Shown: positions 33,965 to 39,225 of the stretch, one piece after another
Position numbering within the stretch: position 1 is the stretch's first letter
Layout of the letters: each line of letters begins with the position of its first letter
Virus record (IMG/VR): IMGVR_UViG_3300020055_000012
Span: 15,405 to 79,404 of that record
DNA: 64,000 nt
Direction: 5' to 3' (one strand)
Origin: a virus
Translations under genes and position numbers: made by a program
Notes under the pieces: generated by a model
The model's input: the letters and a program-made list of their open reading frames with translations, nothing else
Told to the model about the DNA's origin: nothing
Databases searched by the model: none

Positions 33965-34087
33965 TTGCAACTTACAAGTACACATATCGCAAATTATTGT
34001 TCCAATTCGAAAGTCTTTGGAAATACAACGATGAGTCATGATGATAATAAATCAGGATTTAAAAGGGTGTGCTATGATGTAAGTTAA
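33965..34087 (+). CDS. Leader peptide 2 (TTG start; MQLTSTHIANYCSNSKVFGNTTMSHDDNKSGFKRVCYDVS; alternative in-frame ATG at 34031)
   Basis: Read by hand; enriched in amino acids of the downstream tRNA array; contains the antiterminator strand. Confidence 0.7.
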   Translation: MQLTSTHIANYCSNSKVFGNTTMSHDDNKSGFKRVCYDVS

Positions 34088-34146
34088 GCGCATAAAATAA
34101 CTAAAGTTATACACACCCGAACAAGTAAAGTTGTTCGGGTTTTTTT
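34065..34146 (+). promoter_or_regulatory. Attenuator 2: antiterminator (34065-34078 with 34106-34118) versus terminator (34115-34146)
   Basis: GGGTGTG/CACACCC overlaps terminator stem ACCCGAACAA/TTGTTCGGGT + T tract. Confidence 0.8.
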
Positions 34147-34164
34147 ATGCTTAAAAATTGAAAA

Positions 34165-34683
34165 ATGGAATTTAAAGGAAAATATAAAGATTGGTACGAT
34201 AGATTAGTAAAAGCAAATTATGGAGCTAGGTACGGTAAAGAACAAAATGAAAGAATTGTAAAACTAGTAAAAATTTATATTGAGTGGGAAGAAGAAGAGT
34301 TTTGGAAAAATAAAAGAGAAAAGCTTGAAAAGGATATAAAAGATAAAGATAAGATTGATAAAATCTTAGAGTATGAAAGAAAAAGGTATAACGGTGAAGA
34401 GAGAGTAAAAGGTATCGAATGGACTAGAGAGAGAGATTTGGAATTGTTAAAAAAAGCAATTCAAAAACAAGAACTAGAAGATGGAGCTTGGTACGATTGT
34501 GAAGAAGATGCAAAAAATGTTGCAAGATTTGGCGGAATAGTACAATGGAATGAAAAAAGACAACAGTTCCGAGCTCCAGGTCAACAACAATTTGGTGCAG
34601 ATGGATATCTTGACCATTGGGCAGATGTTATAGATGAAGGATATGCAGGATTTGTTCCAATGTGGAAAGTGAAAAAAGAATGA
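34165..34683 (+). CDS. Hypothetical protein inside tRNA array 2 operon
   Basis: ORF track; first gene after attenuator 2. Confidence 0.6.
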   Translation: MEFKGKYKDWYDRLVKANYGARYGKEQNERIVKLVKIYIEWEEEEFWKNKREKLEKDIKDKDKIDKILEYERKRYNGEERVKGIEWTRERDLELLKKAIQKQELEDGAWYDCEEDAKNVARFGGIVQWNEKRQQFRAPGQQQFGADGYLDHWADVIDEGYAGFVPMWKVKKE

Positions 34684-34708
34684 AGTGTTATTTAAAATAT
34701 TAAAATAC

Positions 34709-34797
34709 GGAAAGTGAAGCAGCTCCATTGGAGGGGCGGGCAGTCTTGAAAACTGTAGGGCATTAAGTTGTCTGGGGGTCGGTTCCTCCGCTTTCCG
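34709..34797 (+). tRNA. tRNA-Ser(UGA), atypical T loop
   Basis: GCAGT-CTTGAAA-ACTGT; long variable arm; G discriminator. Confidence 0.75.
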
Positions 34798-34817
34798 CTA
34801 AAATAAAACTAAGAGCT

Positions 34818-35030
34818 ATGACTAAAGTAAGAATAAATGAAATACCAGATGAAGAAAGATTAATTTTTTTAAAAAGAGTTAAAAGAGAAGATTTTGAAGA
34901 ATTTTTTGATGACTATTATCATATCTTAGAACAGATGGCTATAAAAAAAGGATATACTAGTAATGAAATAAAATTTATAACAGAAGGAAAATATGTTAAT
35001 GCTTATGTGTTAATAGATTTAATAATATAA
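34818..35030 (+). CDS. Small hypothetical protein within the tRNA array
   Basis: ORF track. Confidence 0.5.
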   Translation: MTKVRINEIPDEERLIFLKRVKREDFEEFFDDYYHILEQMAIKKGYTSNEIKFITEGKYVNAYVLIDLII

Positions 35031-35032
35031 TT

Positions 35033-35115
35033 GGAGAAATGGCAGAGCGGTAATGCAGCACCCTGCTAAGGTGTACAACAGAAATGTTGCGAGAGTTCGA
35101 ATCTCTCTTTCTCCG
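35033..35115 (+). tRNA. tRNA-Ser(GCU)
   Basis: GGAGAAA/TTTCTCC; GCACC-CTGCTAA-GGTGT; variable arm. Confidence 0.9.
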
Positions 35116-35121
35116 CACTAT

Positions 35122-35194
35122 CTCCTCGTAGCTTACCAAGGGAAGCCTCTGACTTTTAATCAGAAGAGAATAGGTGCAAGTCCTATCGGGGAGA
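35122..35194 (+). tRNA. tRNA-Lys(UUU), atypical D and T loops
   Basis: TCTGA-CTTTTAA-TCAGA; T arm ATAGG-TGCAAGT-CCTAT. Confidence 0.8.
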
Positions 35195-35287
35195 CAAATT
35201 ACAAAAGTTCGAAAATAAATATGGTGTTTCAGATAATGCAGTTAGAAAATGGTGTAAAAAATATAATATTTTAAAATAATAATATAT

Positions 35288-36885: not shown

Positions 36886-37104
36886 TTATCCTTTAAACAT
36901 TCCTCCTACGGTTCTTAATCCTATTAAAGTACATCCTGCAATTAATGTTGGATTAAATAAGTCTTGACTTACATCATAGAATTGAAAACCATCTAATACA
37001 TAAGTCAGTCCACATAATGTTAAAAATACATTTCCCCAAAACTTTTTAGAAGAAACTTTACCATCTGTAGACTCTTTGAATAAGTCTGAAATAAATTTTT
37101 TCAT
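36886..37104 (-). CDS. Small two-TM membrane protein (holin candidate)
   Basis: GKVSSKKFWG followed by two hydrophobic segments. Confidence 0.5.
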   Translation of the reverse strand: MKKFISDLFKESTDGKVSSKKFWGNVFLTLCGLTYVLDGFQFYDVSQDLFNPTLIAGCTLIGLRTVGGMFKG

Positions 37105-37303
37105 TTTTTTAAATTTTTATAGTTATACCAAATAAATATTAGCTTTTAAATAAAATCGATTAATTATTTAAAGTAATTTTTTTACTCCGATTTATAAATA
37201 ATACATGAAAATTATAAATTAAAATCACTTTTCAACAATCTTTTCTAGAGAATCTGTATAATATATTTATACCGTTTTTATGTTAAGAAGATGTACTTTT
37301 TTG

Positions 37304-38281
37304 TTAGCTTTTTATAATGCCAGCAAGGGTTTTTAACCTATTTTTGTATGATTCAGAGACTATTTCATTACCCTTTTCTTTATTTAATAAAACAATCATT
37401 TTATTTAAATCTTTACCAAACTTATCATATTCTACCTGTCTTCTCTTTTTTAAGCCTGGGTATTTTTTATAAGCTTTTTGGTTCATTTTTAAAATTTCAT
37501 CTTGAGCTTCTAGATATTTTCCTTGCTTTATTAATTCCACAAAATCAGACCTTCTAAAAGCTCCTCTACCTCTATTATATGCTATAGAAACCATCGCATC
37601 ATACATGTTTTGGTCTATTTTGTATATAACACCTTCATCGTCCCACTCTCTTAATTCATCATTTACAGCTTTTTCAGCAGTAGCAACATCTTGTCTTAAA
37701 AGTTCTTCTGCTTCTGATTTGCTTATTTCTTGACCTACTTTATATTTTGAATCTTTTATATCTTCTGCATGACCCCAACCAATAGTTATTTTGCCATCTC
37801 CTATTTGGTATCCATCGCTTCTATATCCTTCTTCTTTTTTTAGAAAATCATATAACCAACTTGAAGATGAGTCTGGGGTTTCTATTATTTCAATTTCTTT
37901 TTCTATTTCTTCTTCTGGTTCTACATCTACTTTAGGAAATGATGAAGAAAGTGATATTTCATCTTTTATTTCTGGTGACTCTTGATTTATTACGTTTGAA
38001 ATTGCAGAAGCTGCAGTAAATCCTAATAGTATAGATATTACATATCTAGCCAATTTTACTTTTAAATTTTTTGATAGGTATTTTATTTTTCTTAAAAAAA
38101 CTTTTAAATATTCTTCTGCTTGAGTTGGGGTTTTTATATTTTCTGTTGATTTATTTAACTTTTCTTTTGTTAAGTCCCACACGAAATTTCTATCATCAAT
38201 TTGTTCAATTTCAGATATGACCGAAATAGCTTCACTTATATAAAAATCTATTTCGTTTAATATTTCTTCTTTTAATATCAT
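37304..38281 (-). CDS. GH24 phage lysozyme with long N-terminal extension and C-terminal SESYKNRLKTLAGI motif
   Basis: KKEEGYR...DG..TIGWGH, QNMYDAMVSIAYNRG, GLKKRR..E. Confidence 0.85.
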   Translation of the reverse strand: MILKEEILNEIDFYISEAISVISEIEQIDDRNFVWDLTKEKLNKSTENIKTPTQAEEYLKVFLRKIKYLSKNLKVKLARYVISILLGFTAASAISNVINQESPEIKDEISLSSSFPKVDVEPEEEIEKEIEIIETPDSSSSWLYDFLKKEEGYRSDGYQIGDGKITIGWGHAEDIKDSKYKVGQEISKSEAEELLRQDVATAEKAVNDELREWDDEGVIYKIDQNMYDAMVSIAYNRGRGAFRRSDFVELIKQGKYLEAQDEILKMNQKAYKKYPGLKKRRQVEYDKFGKDLNKMIVLLNKEKGNEIVSESYKNRLKTLAGIIKS

Positions 38282-38296
38282 TATAATATATAATAT

Positions 38297-38367
38297 AAAA
38301 ATAAGACTGCCCATAGTAGCGAGCTTTGAGCAGTCTCTGCAACCGAAGTTACAACGGTCCTAAACCG
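38297..38367 (-). ncRNA. Structured element: TTAGGACCGT + UUCG hairpin + terminator-like hairpin with TCGCTAC loop
   Basis: Minus strand reads TTTAGGACCGT TGTAAC-TTCG-GTTGCA G AGACTGCTCA-AAGCTCGCTACTA-TGGGCAGTCT TATTTTT. Confidence 0.6.
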
Positions 38368-38371
38368 AATC

Positions 38372-38443
38372 TTAAATACCTTGCTCGTTAAACCAGTTAT
38401 AGTCATCAAAGACTTCTTCTTCTTTTTCTTTGTCTTTTTTCAC
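38372..38443 (-). CDS. Tiny acidic peptide MKKDKEKEEEVFDDYNWFNEQGI (GTG start; in-frame ATG at 38503 possible)
   Basis: Read by hand; stops just before the structured element. Confidence 0.35.
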   Translation of the reverse strand: MKKDKEKEEEVFDDYNWFNEQGI

Positions 38444-38524
38444 TTTAAAAATATATAAATTAAAATTAGTTACTTGTTTTTCAAAAACCACCTTGTATAC
38501 CATACATATCCTCTAGTTCTCTCT

Positions 38525-38956
38525 TTATAAATAATCAAATTCAATTTCTATTGTTTTGCGACTTCCATCTATTGTAACTGTAGTAGGAAAAATATGGCCA
38601 GTATCTGCTGTTTTTGTAATTTCCAATTTAAAATCTTCAATACTACCTCCATCAAAAACGTACAAATCATTAAACTCTTTTCTAATTTCTTCAGTTTCAC
38701 CAGAATCTTCTCTGTATATATTAATATCTAATATTAATTTTTTTATTTTTATTGAGTCTGACTTAATTCCCCAACTTCTCTTTTCAAAATCTATATCCCA
38801 GTGAATTTCAGCATAGCTTTTATCAAAAGAATCATCACCACCAATCATATCATTAAATCCATAAACATCTAAAGAAACCTCTTTTGTAATGTAAGGAACT
38901 TCACTAGATTCGCTTAAGGATTCTCTAATTAATTTTCTTAATTCTTTTTGTTTCAT
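38525..38956 (-). CDS. Hypothetical protein, MKQKELRKLIRESLSE N-terminus
   Basis: ORF track; TATTTAT upstream. Confidence 0.55.
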   Translation of the reverse strand: MKQKELRKLIRESLSESSEVPYITKEVSLDVYGFNDMIGGDDSFDKSYAEIHWDIDFEKRSWGIKSDSIKIKKLILDINIYREDSGETEEIRKEFNDLYVFDGGSIEDFKLEITKTADTGHIFPTTVTIDGSRKTIEIEFDYL

Positions 38957-39048
38957 ACAAATAAATATTGTATTTTTTTGTAACTTTTGTATATTTGTAT
39001 CGTTATATTTCTGAAATTAAAAATTTATTTATATTTAAGATATACATA

Positions 39049-39159
39049 ATGAAAAATTTAAAAACATATCGCAATATTGAACCGACCATTACAGGAACTT
39101 GTCCTGCGTATGGCTGGAATAATACGGGTGTGTTTAATGATAGATTATATATGAAATAA
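39049..39159 (+). CDS. Leader peptide 3 (MKNLKTYRNIEPTITGTCPAYGWNNTGVFNDRLYMK)
   Basis: 3' part of ORF-track 38968..39159; contains all nine amino acids of the downstream array and the antiterminator strand. Confidence 0.85.
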   Translation: MKNLKTYRNIEPTITGTCPAYGWNNTGVFNDRLYMK

Positions 39160-39213
39160 AATAATATTAAAATCAAAATACACACCCGGACCCAAAAAGG
39201 TTCGGGTTTTTTT
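39125..39213 (+). promoter_or_regulatory. Attenuator 3: antiterminator (39125-39133 with 39180-39188) versus terminator (39184-39213)
   Basis: Perfect 9-bp CGGGTGTGT/ACACACCCG overlapping terminator ACCCGGACC/GGTTCGGGT + 7 T. Confidence 0.85.
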
Positions 39214-39225
39214 ATGCTTAAATTT

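What the first reader, a model, noticed from the sequence alone, without database searches (positions are those of the whole stretch)
33965..39222. Attenuators 2 and 3 are paralogous cassettes with rewritten sensor codons
Seen: both share ACATATCGCAA near the leader start (33982 and 39064, read in different frames), GGGTGTG in the leader, ATACACACCCG at the terminator 5' arm, and TTCGGGTTTTTTTATGCTTAAA at the end, while the peptides are unrelated. Inference: the RNA switch was duplicated and the sensor codons re-evolved to fit each tRNA cargo, which argues for selection on codon identity. The frame-independent ACATATCGCAA may be a pause or factor-binding site.
Basis: partly seen in the sequence, partly recalled or inferred. 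Interest (0 to 1): 0.75.

Follow-up and report, generated by a model that had tools for sequence, protein, structure and literature searches.

The report
Paralogous leader-peptide attenuators gating phage tRNAs
Two diverged copies of one RNA switch in a large uncultured phage each sit in front of a block of tRNA genes and carry a tiny test gene spelled in that block's amino acids, so the phage probably makes a tRNA set only when ribosomes run short of it; the shared word ACATATCGCAA belongs to the switch's first pairing strand and is probably not a protein-binding site.

Summary
All four shared motifs are at the stated places. The two cassettes (33903-34155 and 38990-39222) align end to end, promoter to terminator (z = 11 against shuffles), so they are paralogues.

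A motif scan that ignored leaders and cargo found 28 such cassettes in AT-rich phage contigs, in six leader types. In every type the leader lists the amino acids of the tRNAs downstream. The true leader-to-cargo pairing is the best of 720 permutations. Synonymous codon choice also leans towards the downstream anticodons (z = 5.4), though not significantly in this window alone.

The "pause or factor site" reading is not supported. ACAUAUC(G) is strand 1 of a trp-type switch, a weakened copy of strand 3 (ACACACCCG) that pairs with strand 2 (CGGGUGUGU). In relatives of cassette B the CGC varies as a codon (CGT, AAG), once with a compensating change.

Function is inferred from sequence only. I found no Rfam family and no paper for attenuator control of tRNA genes. 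This scan has already reported the same system on other phage DNA. Here it adds the duplication-and-rewriting history and the identity of strand 1.

The parts
33903..33910 (+). Cassette A: promoter-like box TATATTCG followed by TATC. It is TATATTTG in relatives L001, L059 and L065.
   Evidence: Aligns with the TATATTTG+TATC box of cassette B. The promoter role is inferred.
33965..34087 (+). Cassette A leader ORF: TTG 33965 (alternative in-frame start ATG 34031) to TAA 34085-34087. Product: MQLTSTHIANYCSNSKVFGNTTMSHDDNKSGFKRVCYDVS.
   Evidence: The frame is open and gap-free in all four A-type relatives, while the internal ATG shifts position. Spacing from box to start is 54 nt, against 51 nt in B. 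Of the 10 codons between ATG 34031 and GGGTGTG, 9 match A-array tRNAs at the amino-acid level and 8 at the codon level, 9 once tRNA-Ser(tga) is counted.
33969..33983 (+). Cassette A strand 1 (AACUUACAAGUACAC), overlapping the first bases of ACATATCGCAA (33982-33992).
   Evidence: Pairs with 34067-34073 and 34078-34085, duplex -16.8 kcal/mol, p = 0.024 against shuffled strand 1. Helix AGUACAC:GUGUGCU is paired in 4 of 4 A-types, with one G-C to A-U compensation in L059.
34065..34085 (+). Cassette A strand 2 (GGGUGUGCUAUGAUGUAAGUU). It ends at the first base of the leader stop codon (34085-34087).
   Evidence: Pairs either with strand 1 or with strand 3.
34105..34118 (+). Cassette A strand 3 (AGUUAUACACACCC), the 3' side of the antiterminator. 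It shares CCC(G) with the terminator 5' arm.
   Evidence: RNAalifold on the A-type alignment predicts GGGUGUG-C-UAUGAU: AGUUAUA-CACACCC. The 2..3 segment folds at -17.7 kcal/mol against -15.5 for the terminator.
34115..34146 (+). Cassette A intrinsic terminator: stem 34115-34124 / 34131-34140, then a T-run to 34146. The shared 22-mer is 34134-34155.
   Evidence: The stem top is rewritten with compensation in L001 (AAUCA/UGAUU in place of AACAA/UUGUU).
34710..35856 (+). Cargo of A: tRNA-Ser(tga) ~34713-34798, Ser(gct), Lys(ttt) 35122-35194, His, Asp, Asn, Val(tac), Phe, Met. Two unknown ORFs also lie behind the cassette: 34165-34683 (before the array) and 34818-35030 (within this span).
   Evidence: ARAGORN, relaxed ARAGORN, Rfam tRNA hits. 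ORF 34165-34683 is missing in a related strain, where the cassette abuts 34709 (X12 record 1). In L065 tRNA-Ser(gct) lies 346 nt after the cassette against 888 nt in the window. Neither ORF has a Pfam or PHROG family.
38990..38997 (+). Cassette B: promoter-like box TATATTTG followed by TATC.
   Evidence: Conserved in L035 and L064. The promoter role is inferred.
39049..39159 (+). Cassette B leader ORF: MKNLKTYRNIEPTITGTCPAYGWNNTGVFNDRLYMK.
   Evidence: Sixteen of 24 sensor codons are amino acids of the nine downstream tRNAs (P = 0.006); 12 are directly decodable (P = 0.0008). The peptide is conserved in L010, L035 and L064.
39062..39071 (+). Cassette B strand 1 (AAACAUAUCG), inside ACATATCGCAA (39064-39074). 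It is a weakened copy of strand 3.
   Evidence: The MFE fold pairs 39062-39070 with 39127-39135. RNAalifold on four B-types keeps CACAU:GUGUG and CG:CG, with a G-C to A-U compensation in L010.
39092..39106 (+). Cassette B small hairpin inside the sensor codons (CAGGA-ACUUG-UCCUG). Possibly a pause or spacer hairpin.
   Evidence: Pairs 54-58:64-68 are kept through synonymous changes in relatives. The role is not known.
39125..39135 (+). Cassette B strand 2 (CGGGUGUGUUU).
   Evidence: It pairs with strand 1 (duplex -9.4 kcal/mol) or with strand 3 (duplex -17.3).
39180..39188 (+). Cassette B strand 3 (ACACACCCG). It overlaps the terminator 5' arm.
   Evidence: With strand 1 masked by a ribosome footprint, the MFE fold forms CGGGUGUGU:ACACACCCG and loses the terminator. 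The 2..3 segment folds at -18.2 kcal/mol against -14.7 for the terminator.
39184..39213 (+). Cassette B intrinsic terminator: stem 39184-39192 / 39199-39207, then a T-run to 39213. The shared 22-mer is 39201-39222.
39226..40031 (+). Cargo of B: tRNA-Ala, Tyr, Gly(tcc), Trp, Pro, Ile(gat), Arg(acg), Thr(tgt), Cys.
   Evidence: ARAGORN and Rfam.

Best explanation
Cassettes A (33903-34155) and B (38990-39222) are two old paralogues of one ribosome-mediated, trp-type transcription attenuator. Each stands in front of a phage tRNA array.

Each cassette has a promoter-like box, a short translated leader and four pairing strands. Strand 1 lies in the first leader codons and contains ACAYAU. Strand 2 is (C)GGGUGUG plus a few following bases. 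Strand 3 is ACACACCCG. Strand 4 is the 3' arm of a GC hairpin followed by a U-run.

Strand 2 can pair with strand 1 or with strand 3. Strand 3 can pair with strand 2 (antiterminator) or with strand 4 (terminator). The sensor codons lie between strands 1 and 2. In B the stop codon lies between strands 2 and 3; in A it abuts the 3' end of strand 2.

Inferred mechanism: a ribosome that stalls on a sensor codon for want of charged tRNA keeps strands 1 and 2 apart. Strand 2 then captures strand 3, the terminator cannot form, and the polymerase reads into the tRNA genes. A ribosome that runs through lets 1:2 re-form (in A it also covers strand 2), so 3:4 forms and transcription stops. The product, tRNA, thus feeds back on its own synthesis, and any one scarce species opens the gate.

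After the duplication the RNA scaffold was kept while the codons between strands 1 and 2 were rewritten to list each array's tRNAs. ACATATCGCAA is not a separate site. Its 5' part is strand 1, a weakened copy of strand 3. Its 3' part is ordinary coding sequence (an Arg codon) in B and part of an invariant 5' block in A.
For: Paralogy:
- The full-length alignment has z = 11, with an identical 22-mer and an identical ATACACACCCG.

Family:
- The motif GGGTGTG..ACACCCG..CGGGTTTTTT, which says nothing about leader or cargo, found 11 IMG/VR stretches, 67 metagenome stretches and 17 genome stretches.
- 28 distinct AT-rich cassettes were found, nearly all with a 24-46 codon ORF across GGGTGTG and tRNAs downstream wherever the contig continues; one is cut off at its contig end and one has too little downstream DNA.

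Leader matches cargo:
- Per-cassette binomial P values run from about 0.04 down to 5e-10.
- The identity assignment is the best of 720 type permutations, at both amino-acid and codon level.
- Synonymous choice favours decodable codons: 132 of 163 against 105.9 expected, z = 5.4.

Translation:
- AGGAG lies 8-10 nt before the ATG in types E and F.

Structure:
- Unforced terminator pairs covary (CG 15, UA 8, AU 7 at one pair); 96.9% of cells pair; 0 of 500 shuffles reach this.
- The antiterminator extension covaries modestly; 2 of 500 shuffles reach it.
- Cognate 1:2 duplexes average -15.2 kcal/mol against -11.9 for non-cognate pairs. The identity assignment is the best of 720.
- RNAalifold recovers the 1:2 helix in types B, C and F, with compensations. 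In A there is one compensation, in L059.

Energies:
- 2:3 is at least as stable as 3:4 in both cassettes (-18.2 against -14.7 in B; -17.7 against -15.5 in A).
- Masking strand 1 of B switches the MFE fold to the antiterminator.

Cargo link for A:
- A related strain lacks ORF 34165-34683, so the cassette abuts the first tRNA.

Weak hint of expression:
- One metatranscriptome contig spans 39051-39228, and another spans 32195-32426 (leader 1 into tRNA-Ile).
Against: - Nothing here shows termination, read-through or translation. The phage is uncultured, and the RNA-library contigs cannot show transcript ends and may derive from DNA.
- Thermodynamic folds with a 30-nt ribosome mask give the antiterminator only for stalls next to strand 1 of B. 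For later stall sites in B, and for all tested sites in A, the MFE fold keeps the terminator. The model therefore needs a steric or kinetic argument that I could not compute.
- B's 1:2 duplex is weak: -9.4 kcal/mol; the best duplex over a wider window is -11.8, p = 0.14 against shuffles.
- A's start codon is uncertain (TTG 33965 or ATG 34031). Among its first 11 codons after the start, 4 are in A's own set.
- Some leader codons lack a partner tRNA, such as AAG in L035 and L064, and Asn codons in B.
- The search motif fixed the core of strands 2-4, so those columns carry no covariation information.
- The six types are few, and some are related (B with C, A with D).
Confidence: 0.75

Rival explanations
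1. ACATATCGCAA is a discrete, frame-independent signal: an RNA polymerase pause site or the binding site of a phage or host factor, shared by the two cassettes.
For: It is identical in both cassettes although read in different frames. In A it lies in a 30-nt block that is invariant in all four A-type relatives, third codon positions included.
Against: It occurs nowhere else in the window. Relatives of B change it as a codon: CGC to CGT, and to AAG with a compensating change opposite. The phage that carries L008/L057 (A-type) and L010 (B-type) shares only ACACATAT between its two cassettes. The 11-mer match by itself has p about 0.03. The conserved part is explained by pairing with GUGUGU.
Confidence: 0.08
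2. The same parts work with the opposite or a less specific logic. Efficient translation of the leader could promote read-through (a positive check that translation works). Alternatively the cassette could report general translation capacity or coupling rather than the particular tRNAs listed.
For: With a simple footprint mask most stall positions do not favour the antiterminator. In B, E and F the stop codon lies 21-27 nt past GGGUGUG, so a terminating ribosome does not cover strand 2.
Against: Codon content specific to each array is hard to explain if only bulk translation were sensed. The order strand 1, sensor codons, strand 2, stop, strand 3, strand 4 is that of classical negative-feedback attenuators. 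2:3 is at least as stable as 3:4.
Confidence: 0.12
3. The short ORFs are not translated. The cassettes are plain promoter-proximal terminators or processing signals, and the likeness between leader composition and cargo has another cause.
For: A and B have no Shine-Dalgarno sequence, and A needs a TTG start or a late ATG. There are no expression data with transcript ends.
Against: The leader-cargo match is the best of 720 permutations, with per-cassette P down to 5e-10. The ORFs stay open for 24-46 codons in 23-33% GC sequence in nearly all of the 28 cassettes. Types E and F carry AGGAG at the right spacing. GGGTGTG is kept in two different frames, which fits an RNA element inside a genuine ORF.
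Confidence: 0.04
4. A and B are convergent rather than duplicated. Any terminator with an overlapping antiterminator could drift to similar words.
For: An unrelated GC-rich attenuator in Acidobacteriota, ahead of a semialdehyde dehydrogenase gene, satisfies the same motif.
Against: The likeness runs through promoter, 5' UTR, leader start, loop and post-terminator bases (z = 11). It includes a 22-nt identity that extends 9 nt beyond the U-run.
Confidence: 0.02

Closest known systems
Multivalent leader-peptide attenuators of enterobacterial amino-acid operons (thr leader with Thr+Ile codons; ilvGMEDA leader with Ile/Leu/Val; also trpL, hisL, pheL). Textbook knowledge.
   Same: A short translated leader rich in regulatory codons. 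Four strands give exclusive 1:2 / 2:3 / 3:4 pairings. An intrinsic terminator stands ahead of the regulated genes. Several amino acids are sensed by one leader.
   Different: The cargo is tRNA genes, not biosynthetic enzymes. The leader lists up to about ten different amino acids, mostly once or twice each, instead of runs of one. The sensor codons lie between strands 1 and 2, and the stop codon lies beyond strand 2 in most types. It is phage-borne and duplicated with rewritten codons. There is no sequence homology (Rfam gave no hit).
E. coli pheST attenuator (Phe-codon leader ahead of phenylalanyl-tRNA synthetase). Recalled from memory, not checked here.
   Same: Leader-peptide attenuation applied to a component of the translation apparatus, which feeds back on decoding of the sensed codon.
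   Different: It regulates a synthetase for one amino acid, not arrays of tRNA genes.
T-box riboswitches
   Same: A terminator/antiterminator decision that reports the state of a specific tRNA and controls translation-related genes.
   Different: T-boxes bind uncharged tRNA directly through a specifier codon and the T-box sequence, with no ribosome or ORF. No T-box was detected here. These cassettes need a translated ORF.
Inducible long tRNA array (trn operon) of Anabaena sp. PCC 7120 (PMC8421152)
   Same: A supernumerary, horizontally spread tRNA array that is silent until translation is impaired; rtcB is co-regulated with it. Bacteroidia contigs with a related cassette also carry RtcB or a Ro-like TROVE gene behind the tRNA.
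   Different: Control there is through direct repeats over the -10 box and start site, probably a repressor site. The paper does not contain the words attenuator, leader or terminator.

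Membership tests
Ribosome-mediated (leader-peptide) transcription attenuators | A short ORF in the 5' leader, enriched in codons cognate to the regulated product | tested here: met
   A: 20 of 32 sensor codons fall in the A tRNA set at the amino-acid level, and 9 of the 10 codons between ATG 34031 and GGGTGTG. B: 16 of 24. Family: best of 720 permutations.
Ribosome-mediated (leader-peptide) transcription attenuators | An intrinsic terminator (GC hairpin plus U-run) between the leader and the regulated genes | tested here: met
   Hairpins of -15.5 and -14.7 kcal/mol with a 7-nt U-run. 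Unforced stem pairs covary, with 0 of 500 shuffles reaching the observed value.
Ribosome-mediated (leader-peptide) transcription attenuators | An antiterminator helix that shares bases with the terminator 5' arm | tested here: met
   GGGUGUG:CACACCC shares CCC(G) with the terminator. The 2..3 segments fold at -17.7 and -18.2 kcal/mol. The extension pairs covary modestly. The core was fixed by the search motif.
Ribosome-mediated (leader-peptide) transcription attenuators | An anti-antiterminator (1:2) helix whose 5' strand is covered by the translating ribosome | tested here: met
   Strand 1 lies in leader codons 1-8. Cognate 1:2 duplexes are the best of 720 permutations. Compensations were seen. 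The helix is weak in window B (p = 0.14).
Ribosome-mediated (leader-peptide) transcription attenuators | Read-through rises when the cognate charged tRNA is scarce; loss of leader translation gives super-attenuation | not testable with these tools
   The phage is uncultured. The RNA-library contigs cannot show transcript ends or levels.
T-box riboswitch | Stem I with a specifier loop and the conserved T-box sequence, acting without an ORF | tested here: not met
   No T-box or any other cis-regulatory Rfam family was found on either cassette at E up to 1.
Any curated Rfam RNA family | A match to a covariance model | tested here: not met
   Only tRNA-type hits in 30000-42000. Nothing on the related Bacteroidia cassettes either.

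The most novel reading that the evidence does not exclude
The scaffold is a portable, reprogrammable gauge of tRNA supply. It duplicates, and only the codons between strands 1 and 2 are rewritten to match whatever tRNAs lie behind it. The A/D and B/C lineages have co-diversified with their cargo across large phages. Relatives of the same scaffold gate single tRNAs together with RtcB ligase or a Ro-like protein on Bacteroidia contigs. This would point to a cellular response to tRNA damage that phages took over to replace tRNAs lost during infection, for example to host anticodon nucleases.
Probability: 0.35. Interest if true: 0.9.

Novelty: new variant of a known kind. Interest (0 to 1): 0.72.

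Why it matters
How phages regulate their tRNA genes is largely unknown. Here the evidence points to a self-correcting loop: a ribosome tests the very codons the array serves, and transcription of the array opens only if one of them is read slowly.

The A/B pair shows how such a sensor evolves. The RNA switch is conserved even across reading frames, while the sensor codons are free to be rewritten. This gives natural swap experiments and a design rule for synthetic sensors of multiple tRNAs.

It also makes a hypothesis testable with short DNA fragments in cell-free systems: that phage tRNAs are a regulated reserve against tRNA loss rather than constitutive codon-usage helpers.

Tried and rejected
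- BLASTN of 33900-36100 against 50,697 phage records matched only through tRNA genes. No annotated relative was found.
- Rfam, at E up to 1 on 30000-42000 and on eight bacterial loci, gave no family for the cassettes.
- MAFFT with default settings did not align the two 11-mers. A global alignment with free end gaps did.
- TANNTTTG (the Bacteroidota -7 box) is not enriched in the window: 104 matches against 112 expected. The host therefore cannot be argued from it; only the specific TATATTTG boxes before the cassettes are noted.
- MFE folding with ribosome masks did not give the antiterminator for most stall sites.
- Metatranscriptome runs are stored as contigs only. They cover the B leader and attenuator 1, but cannot show 3' ends, strand or level, and may hold DNA.
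- I looked for within-type co-variation of single leader codons with single tRNAs (for example AAG with tRNA-Lys(ctt)). L010 has both, but L035 and L064 have AAG without that tRNA, so this line was dropped.
- I first read two 18-nt in-frame indels between the window's cassette A and L057. The alignment is in fact gap-free and only the internal ATG moves.
- I did not build a covariance model. The alignable 2-3-4 core is short and was already fixed by the motif scan of all three public collections.
- Five literature searches found no account of attenuator control of tRNA genes.

Full report
**What is there**

The window is part of a 79.4-kb virus record that CheckV rates 24% complete, so it is a fragment of a large phage. 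The phage occurs in many salt-marsh metagenomes. The window holds three tRNA clusters.

Cassette A spans a TATATTCG box at 33903 to the T-run at 34146. Cassette B spans a TATATTTG box at 38990 to the T-run at 39213. Each precedes one cluster.

The identical 22-mer cannot be chance. The 11-mer alone is only modestly unusual, with p about 0.03 between the two leader 5' parts. The cassettes as wholes are clearly homologous: a global alignment scores z = 11 over dinucleotide shuffles and lines up promoter box, 5' UTR, leader start, GGGTGTG, loop words, TACACACCCG and terminator.

**A family, found without looking at leaders or cargo**

I scanned for GGGTGTG, then ACACCCG, then CGGGTTTTTT, with gaps between them. 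The scan returned 11 stretches in IMG/VR, 67 in metagenome contigs and 17 in genome contigs.

- Of these, 28 distinct cassettes lie in AT-rich (23-36% GC) phage-like contigs.
- Nearly all have an ORF of 24-46 codons running across GGGTGTG and, where the contig continues, tRNA genes downstream on the same strand.
- The leaders fall into six types:

| Type | Recognisable leader segment | Main downstream tRNAs |
|---|---|---|
| A | ..HDDNKSGF.. | Ser, Lys, His, Asp, Asn, Val, Phe, Met |
| B | ..TYRNI.PT.TG.CPAYGW.. | Ala, Tyr, Gly, Trp, Pro, Ile, Arg, Thr, Cys |
| C | ..WP.MPT.G..CII.GDY.. | Gly, Met, Val, Trp, Tyr, Pro, Ile, Asp, Ala, Thr |
| D | ..THKHFNKSSFSNKS.. | Phe, Asn, His, Lys, Ser |
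| E | ..TTTATRPVGTTGRPA.. | Pro, Thr, Arg, Ala, Val, Gly |
| F | ..TSRHMAPAQTLQGQL.. | Gln, His, Pro, Ala, Ser, Met, Gly, Leu, Thr, Arg |

- A and B types occur together on JAAHTH010000042.1 and on IMGVR_UViG_3300042691_049879.
- C and D types, whose cargo resembles B's and A's, occur together on the 212-kb and 30.7-kb contigs. The A/B split is therefore old.

**Leader codons follow the cargo**

- Against each locus's own codon usage, the sensor codons are enriched for the amino acids of the downstream tRNAs in every cassette with six or more tRNAs. P runs from about 0.04 for A-types read from TTG down to 5e-10.
- With one representative per type, the true leader-cargo assignment is the single best of 720 permutations, at both the amino-acid and the codon level.
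- In the window, the A leader fits A's set at 20 of 32 codons and B's at 10 of 32. The B leader fits B's set at 16 of 24 and A's at 6 of 24.
- Of the 10 codons of A between ATG 34031 and GGGTGTG (SHDDNKSGFK), 9 fit A's set at the amino-acid level and 1 fits B's.
- Relaxed ARAGORN adds tRNA-Ser(tga) at about 34713 and tRNA-Lys(ttt) at 35117. These account for the TCA and AAA codons.
- Given the amino acid, synonymous choice favours codons the downstream anticodons read directly: 132 of 163 against 105.9 expected, z = 5.4. The representatives include related pairs, and the effect is not significant for the window's two cassettes alone.

That test was not met. The only non-tRNA group that satisfies the motif is a GC-rich Acidobacteriota leader (MCTTPQTVCRKRTKRIRRPGVC..). 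It stands ahead of a semialdehyde dehydrogenase gene and looks like an ordinary amino-acid attenuator.

**The switch**

- *Strands 3 and 4.* They form a 9-10 bp GC hairpin followed by a U-run. The stem pairs that the search motif did not fix covary strongly: for example CG 15, UA 8, AU 7 at one pair, with 0 of 500 shuffles reaching the observed score.
- *Strands 2 and 3.* GGGUGUG pairs with CACACCC, sharing CCC(G) with the terminator arm. The extension pairs covary modestly. In A the helix extends to GGGUGUG-C-UAUGAU: AGUUAUA-CACACCC. The 2:3 fold is as stable as the terminator or more so: -18.2 against -14.7 kcal/mol in B, and -17.7 against -15.5 in A.
- *Strand 1.* It lies in the first leader codons.
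  - In B the MFE fold pairs AAACAUAUC (39062-39070) with GGUGUGUUU.
  - RNAalifold on four B-types keeps CACAU:GUGUG and CG:CG, with a G-C to A-U compensation in L010.
  - Types C and F give the same helix (UUAACAUAU:GUGUGUUAA in C), with compensations.
  - In A, strand 1 is AACUUACAAGUACAC. It pairs with GUGUGCU and UGUAAGUU (-16.8 kcal/mol, p = 0.024 against shuffles). The inner helix is kept in 4 of 4 A-types with one compensation; the outer helix is not kept in the most distant A-type.
  - Across the six types, cognate strand-1/strand-2 duplexes are the best of 720 assignments.

**What ACATATCGCAA is**

Because strand 2 must pair with either strand 1 or strand 3, strand 1 has to resemble strand 3. 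ACAUAUCG is a weakened ACACACCCG. That explains why the word is kept regardless of frame.

It also explains why most leaders of the family begin with Thr-His or Thr-Tyr (ACA CAU / ACA UAU). The 2-nt offset between A (ACACAU) and B (ACAUAU) matches a 2-nt shift in the pairing register.

The CGC is not fixed in relatives of B: it is CGT in L035 and L064, and AAG in L010. In the phage carrying L008 and L010 the two cassettes share only ACACATAT. A pause or factor site is therefore unnecessary and unsupported.

In A, RNAalifold also offers a 5-bp UUUGC:GCAAA hairpin that would cover the TTG start. It never varies, so it says nothing either way.

**How it probably works (inferred)**

- A ribosome stalled on a sensor codon sits between strands 1 and 2, or on strand 1. 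Strand 2 is then free when strand 3 emerges, the antiterminator forms, and the array is transcribed.
- A ribosome that runs on to the stop lets 1:2 close behind it. The stop lies 16-30 nt past GGGUGUG, and in A it abuts the 3' end of strand 2. The terminator then forms.
- Without translation, 1:2 and 3:4 form together.
- Simple footprint masks reproduce the switch only for stalls next to strand 1 of B. The rest rests on sterics and timing, which I could not compute.
- AGGAG boxes 8-10 nt before the ATG in types E and F support translation.
- For A the start is probably TTG 33965. It has the same spacing from the promoter box as B's ATG. The frame stays open through substitutions, and the internal ATG moves in L057. 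Residues upstream of ATG 34031 (SNSKVF.N) already fit the cargo. This remains uncertain.

**Link of A to its tRNAs**

In the window an unknown 172-codon ORF separates cassette A from the array. A related strain's contig joins 34163 directly to 34709, the start of tRNA-Ser(tga) (X12 record 1). L065 shows the same shorter spacing. The ORF has no Pfam or PHROG family.

**Expression hint only**

One marine metatranscriptome holds a 178-nt contig covering 39051-39228, and a 232-nt contig covering 32195-32426 (leader 1 through tRNA-Ile). Contigs show neither transcript ends nor strand, and DNA carry-over is possible.

**Comparison with what is known**

The architecture is that of enterobacterial leader-peptide attenuators, most like the multivalent thr and ilvGMEDA leaders. 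The cargo is tRNA genes and the leader is a list of many amino acids.

No Rfam family matches. Five full-text searches found no report of such control of tRNA genes. The nearest functional parallel is the Anabaena tRNA array induced under translational stress, but that array is controlled through promoter repeats.

Earlier follow-ups of this scan reported the same system in other phage genomes. The system itself is therefore not new to the scan. This finding adds the duplication-and-rewriting history and the identity of strand 1.

**Verdict**

Paralogy and cargo-matched rewriting are supported. The pause/factor-site idea is replaced by strand 1. The mechanism is well supported by comparative evidence but untested experimentally.

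Noticed in passing
L089:6287-8000 and L091:4612-7672 (Bacteroidia MAG contigs); also L061, L085, L092, L095: A related cassette (GGGUGUGCGAUG : CAUCGCACACCC plus terminator, with a 37-45 codon ORF) stands before single tRNAs (Gln, Phe+Cys, Pro). It is followed by a TROVE (Ro-like) gene in L089, and by an HNH gene and RtcB ligase in L091. The leaders are enriched in the matching residue (5 Phe and 2 Cys of 37; 5 Pro of 38; only 3 Gln of 45). No Rfam family matches.
   Followed up: partly
L090, L094, L028, L050 and about 15 other GC-rich Acidobacteriota contigs: A conserved 26-codon leader (MCTTPQTVCRKRTKRIRRPGVCEIVA) with the same strand 2/3/4 grammar lies 15-30 nt before a 352-aa semialdehyde dehydrogenase gene (Asd- or ArgC-type). 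It looks like an undescribed amino-acid attenuator.
   Followed up: partly
window 41129-41387 (+): A weak match to bacterial RNase P RNA class A (44 bits against a gathering score of 100, E = 2.9e-11, covering the full model span in only 259 nt), about 1.1 kb downstream of the third tRNA array. Possibly a reduced phage RNase P RNA.
   Followed up: no
window 32522-32805 (+): tRNA-Arg(tct) interrupted by a 207-nt intron in the anticodon loop (relaxed ARAGORN). It lies behind 'attenuator 1', whose leader (32187-32261) is rich in ATA and AGA/AGG codons and precedes tRNA-Ile(tat).
   Followed up: partly
window 35683-35781, 35857-36030 and 39467-39547 (+): Unassigned stretches inside the arrays. One is a ~95-nt element closed by a 15-bp terminal stem. 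Two are tRNA-like sequences with CUCAU anticodon loops that default ARAGORN does not call. One is an 81-nt gap between tRNA-Gly and tRNA-Trp with no tRNA call.
   Followed up: partly
window 34164-34708: The 172-codon ORF of no known family between cassette A and its tRNAs is a presence/absence polymorphism. It is absent from a 2025 DNA run's contig and from L065.
   Followed up: partly
Alignment A4 (type C cassettes), columns 11-16 with 151-156: In all eight type C cassettes the start codon region AUGAAA can pair with UUUCAU just before the leader's stop codon. In the terminated fold this would hide the start codon. The pairs never vary, so there is no covariation evidence.
   Followed up: no
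window 34147-34149 and 39214-39216, compared with L059, L035, L064 and L065: The base after the U-run agrees between the A and B cassettes in the window (A/A) and in the L064/L065 sample (G/G), but differs on JAAHTH010000042.1 (T in B, G in A). TGCTTAAA follows the U-run in both cassette types of this clade. This may reflect occasional gene conversion between the paralogues.
   Followed up: no
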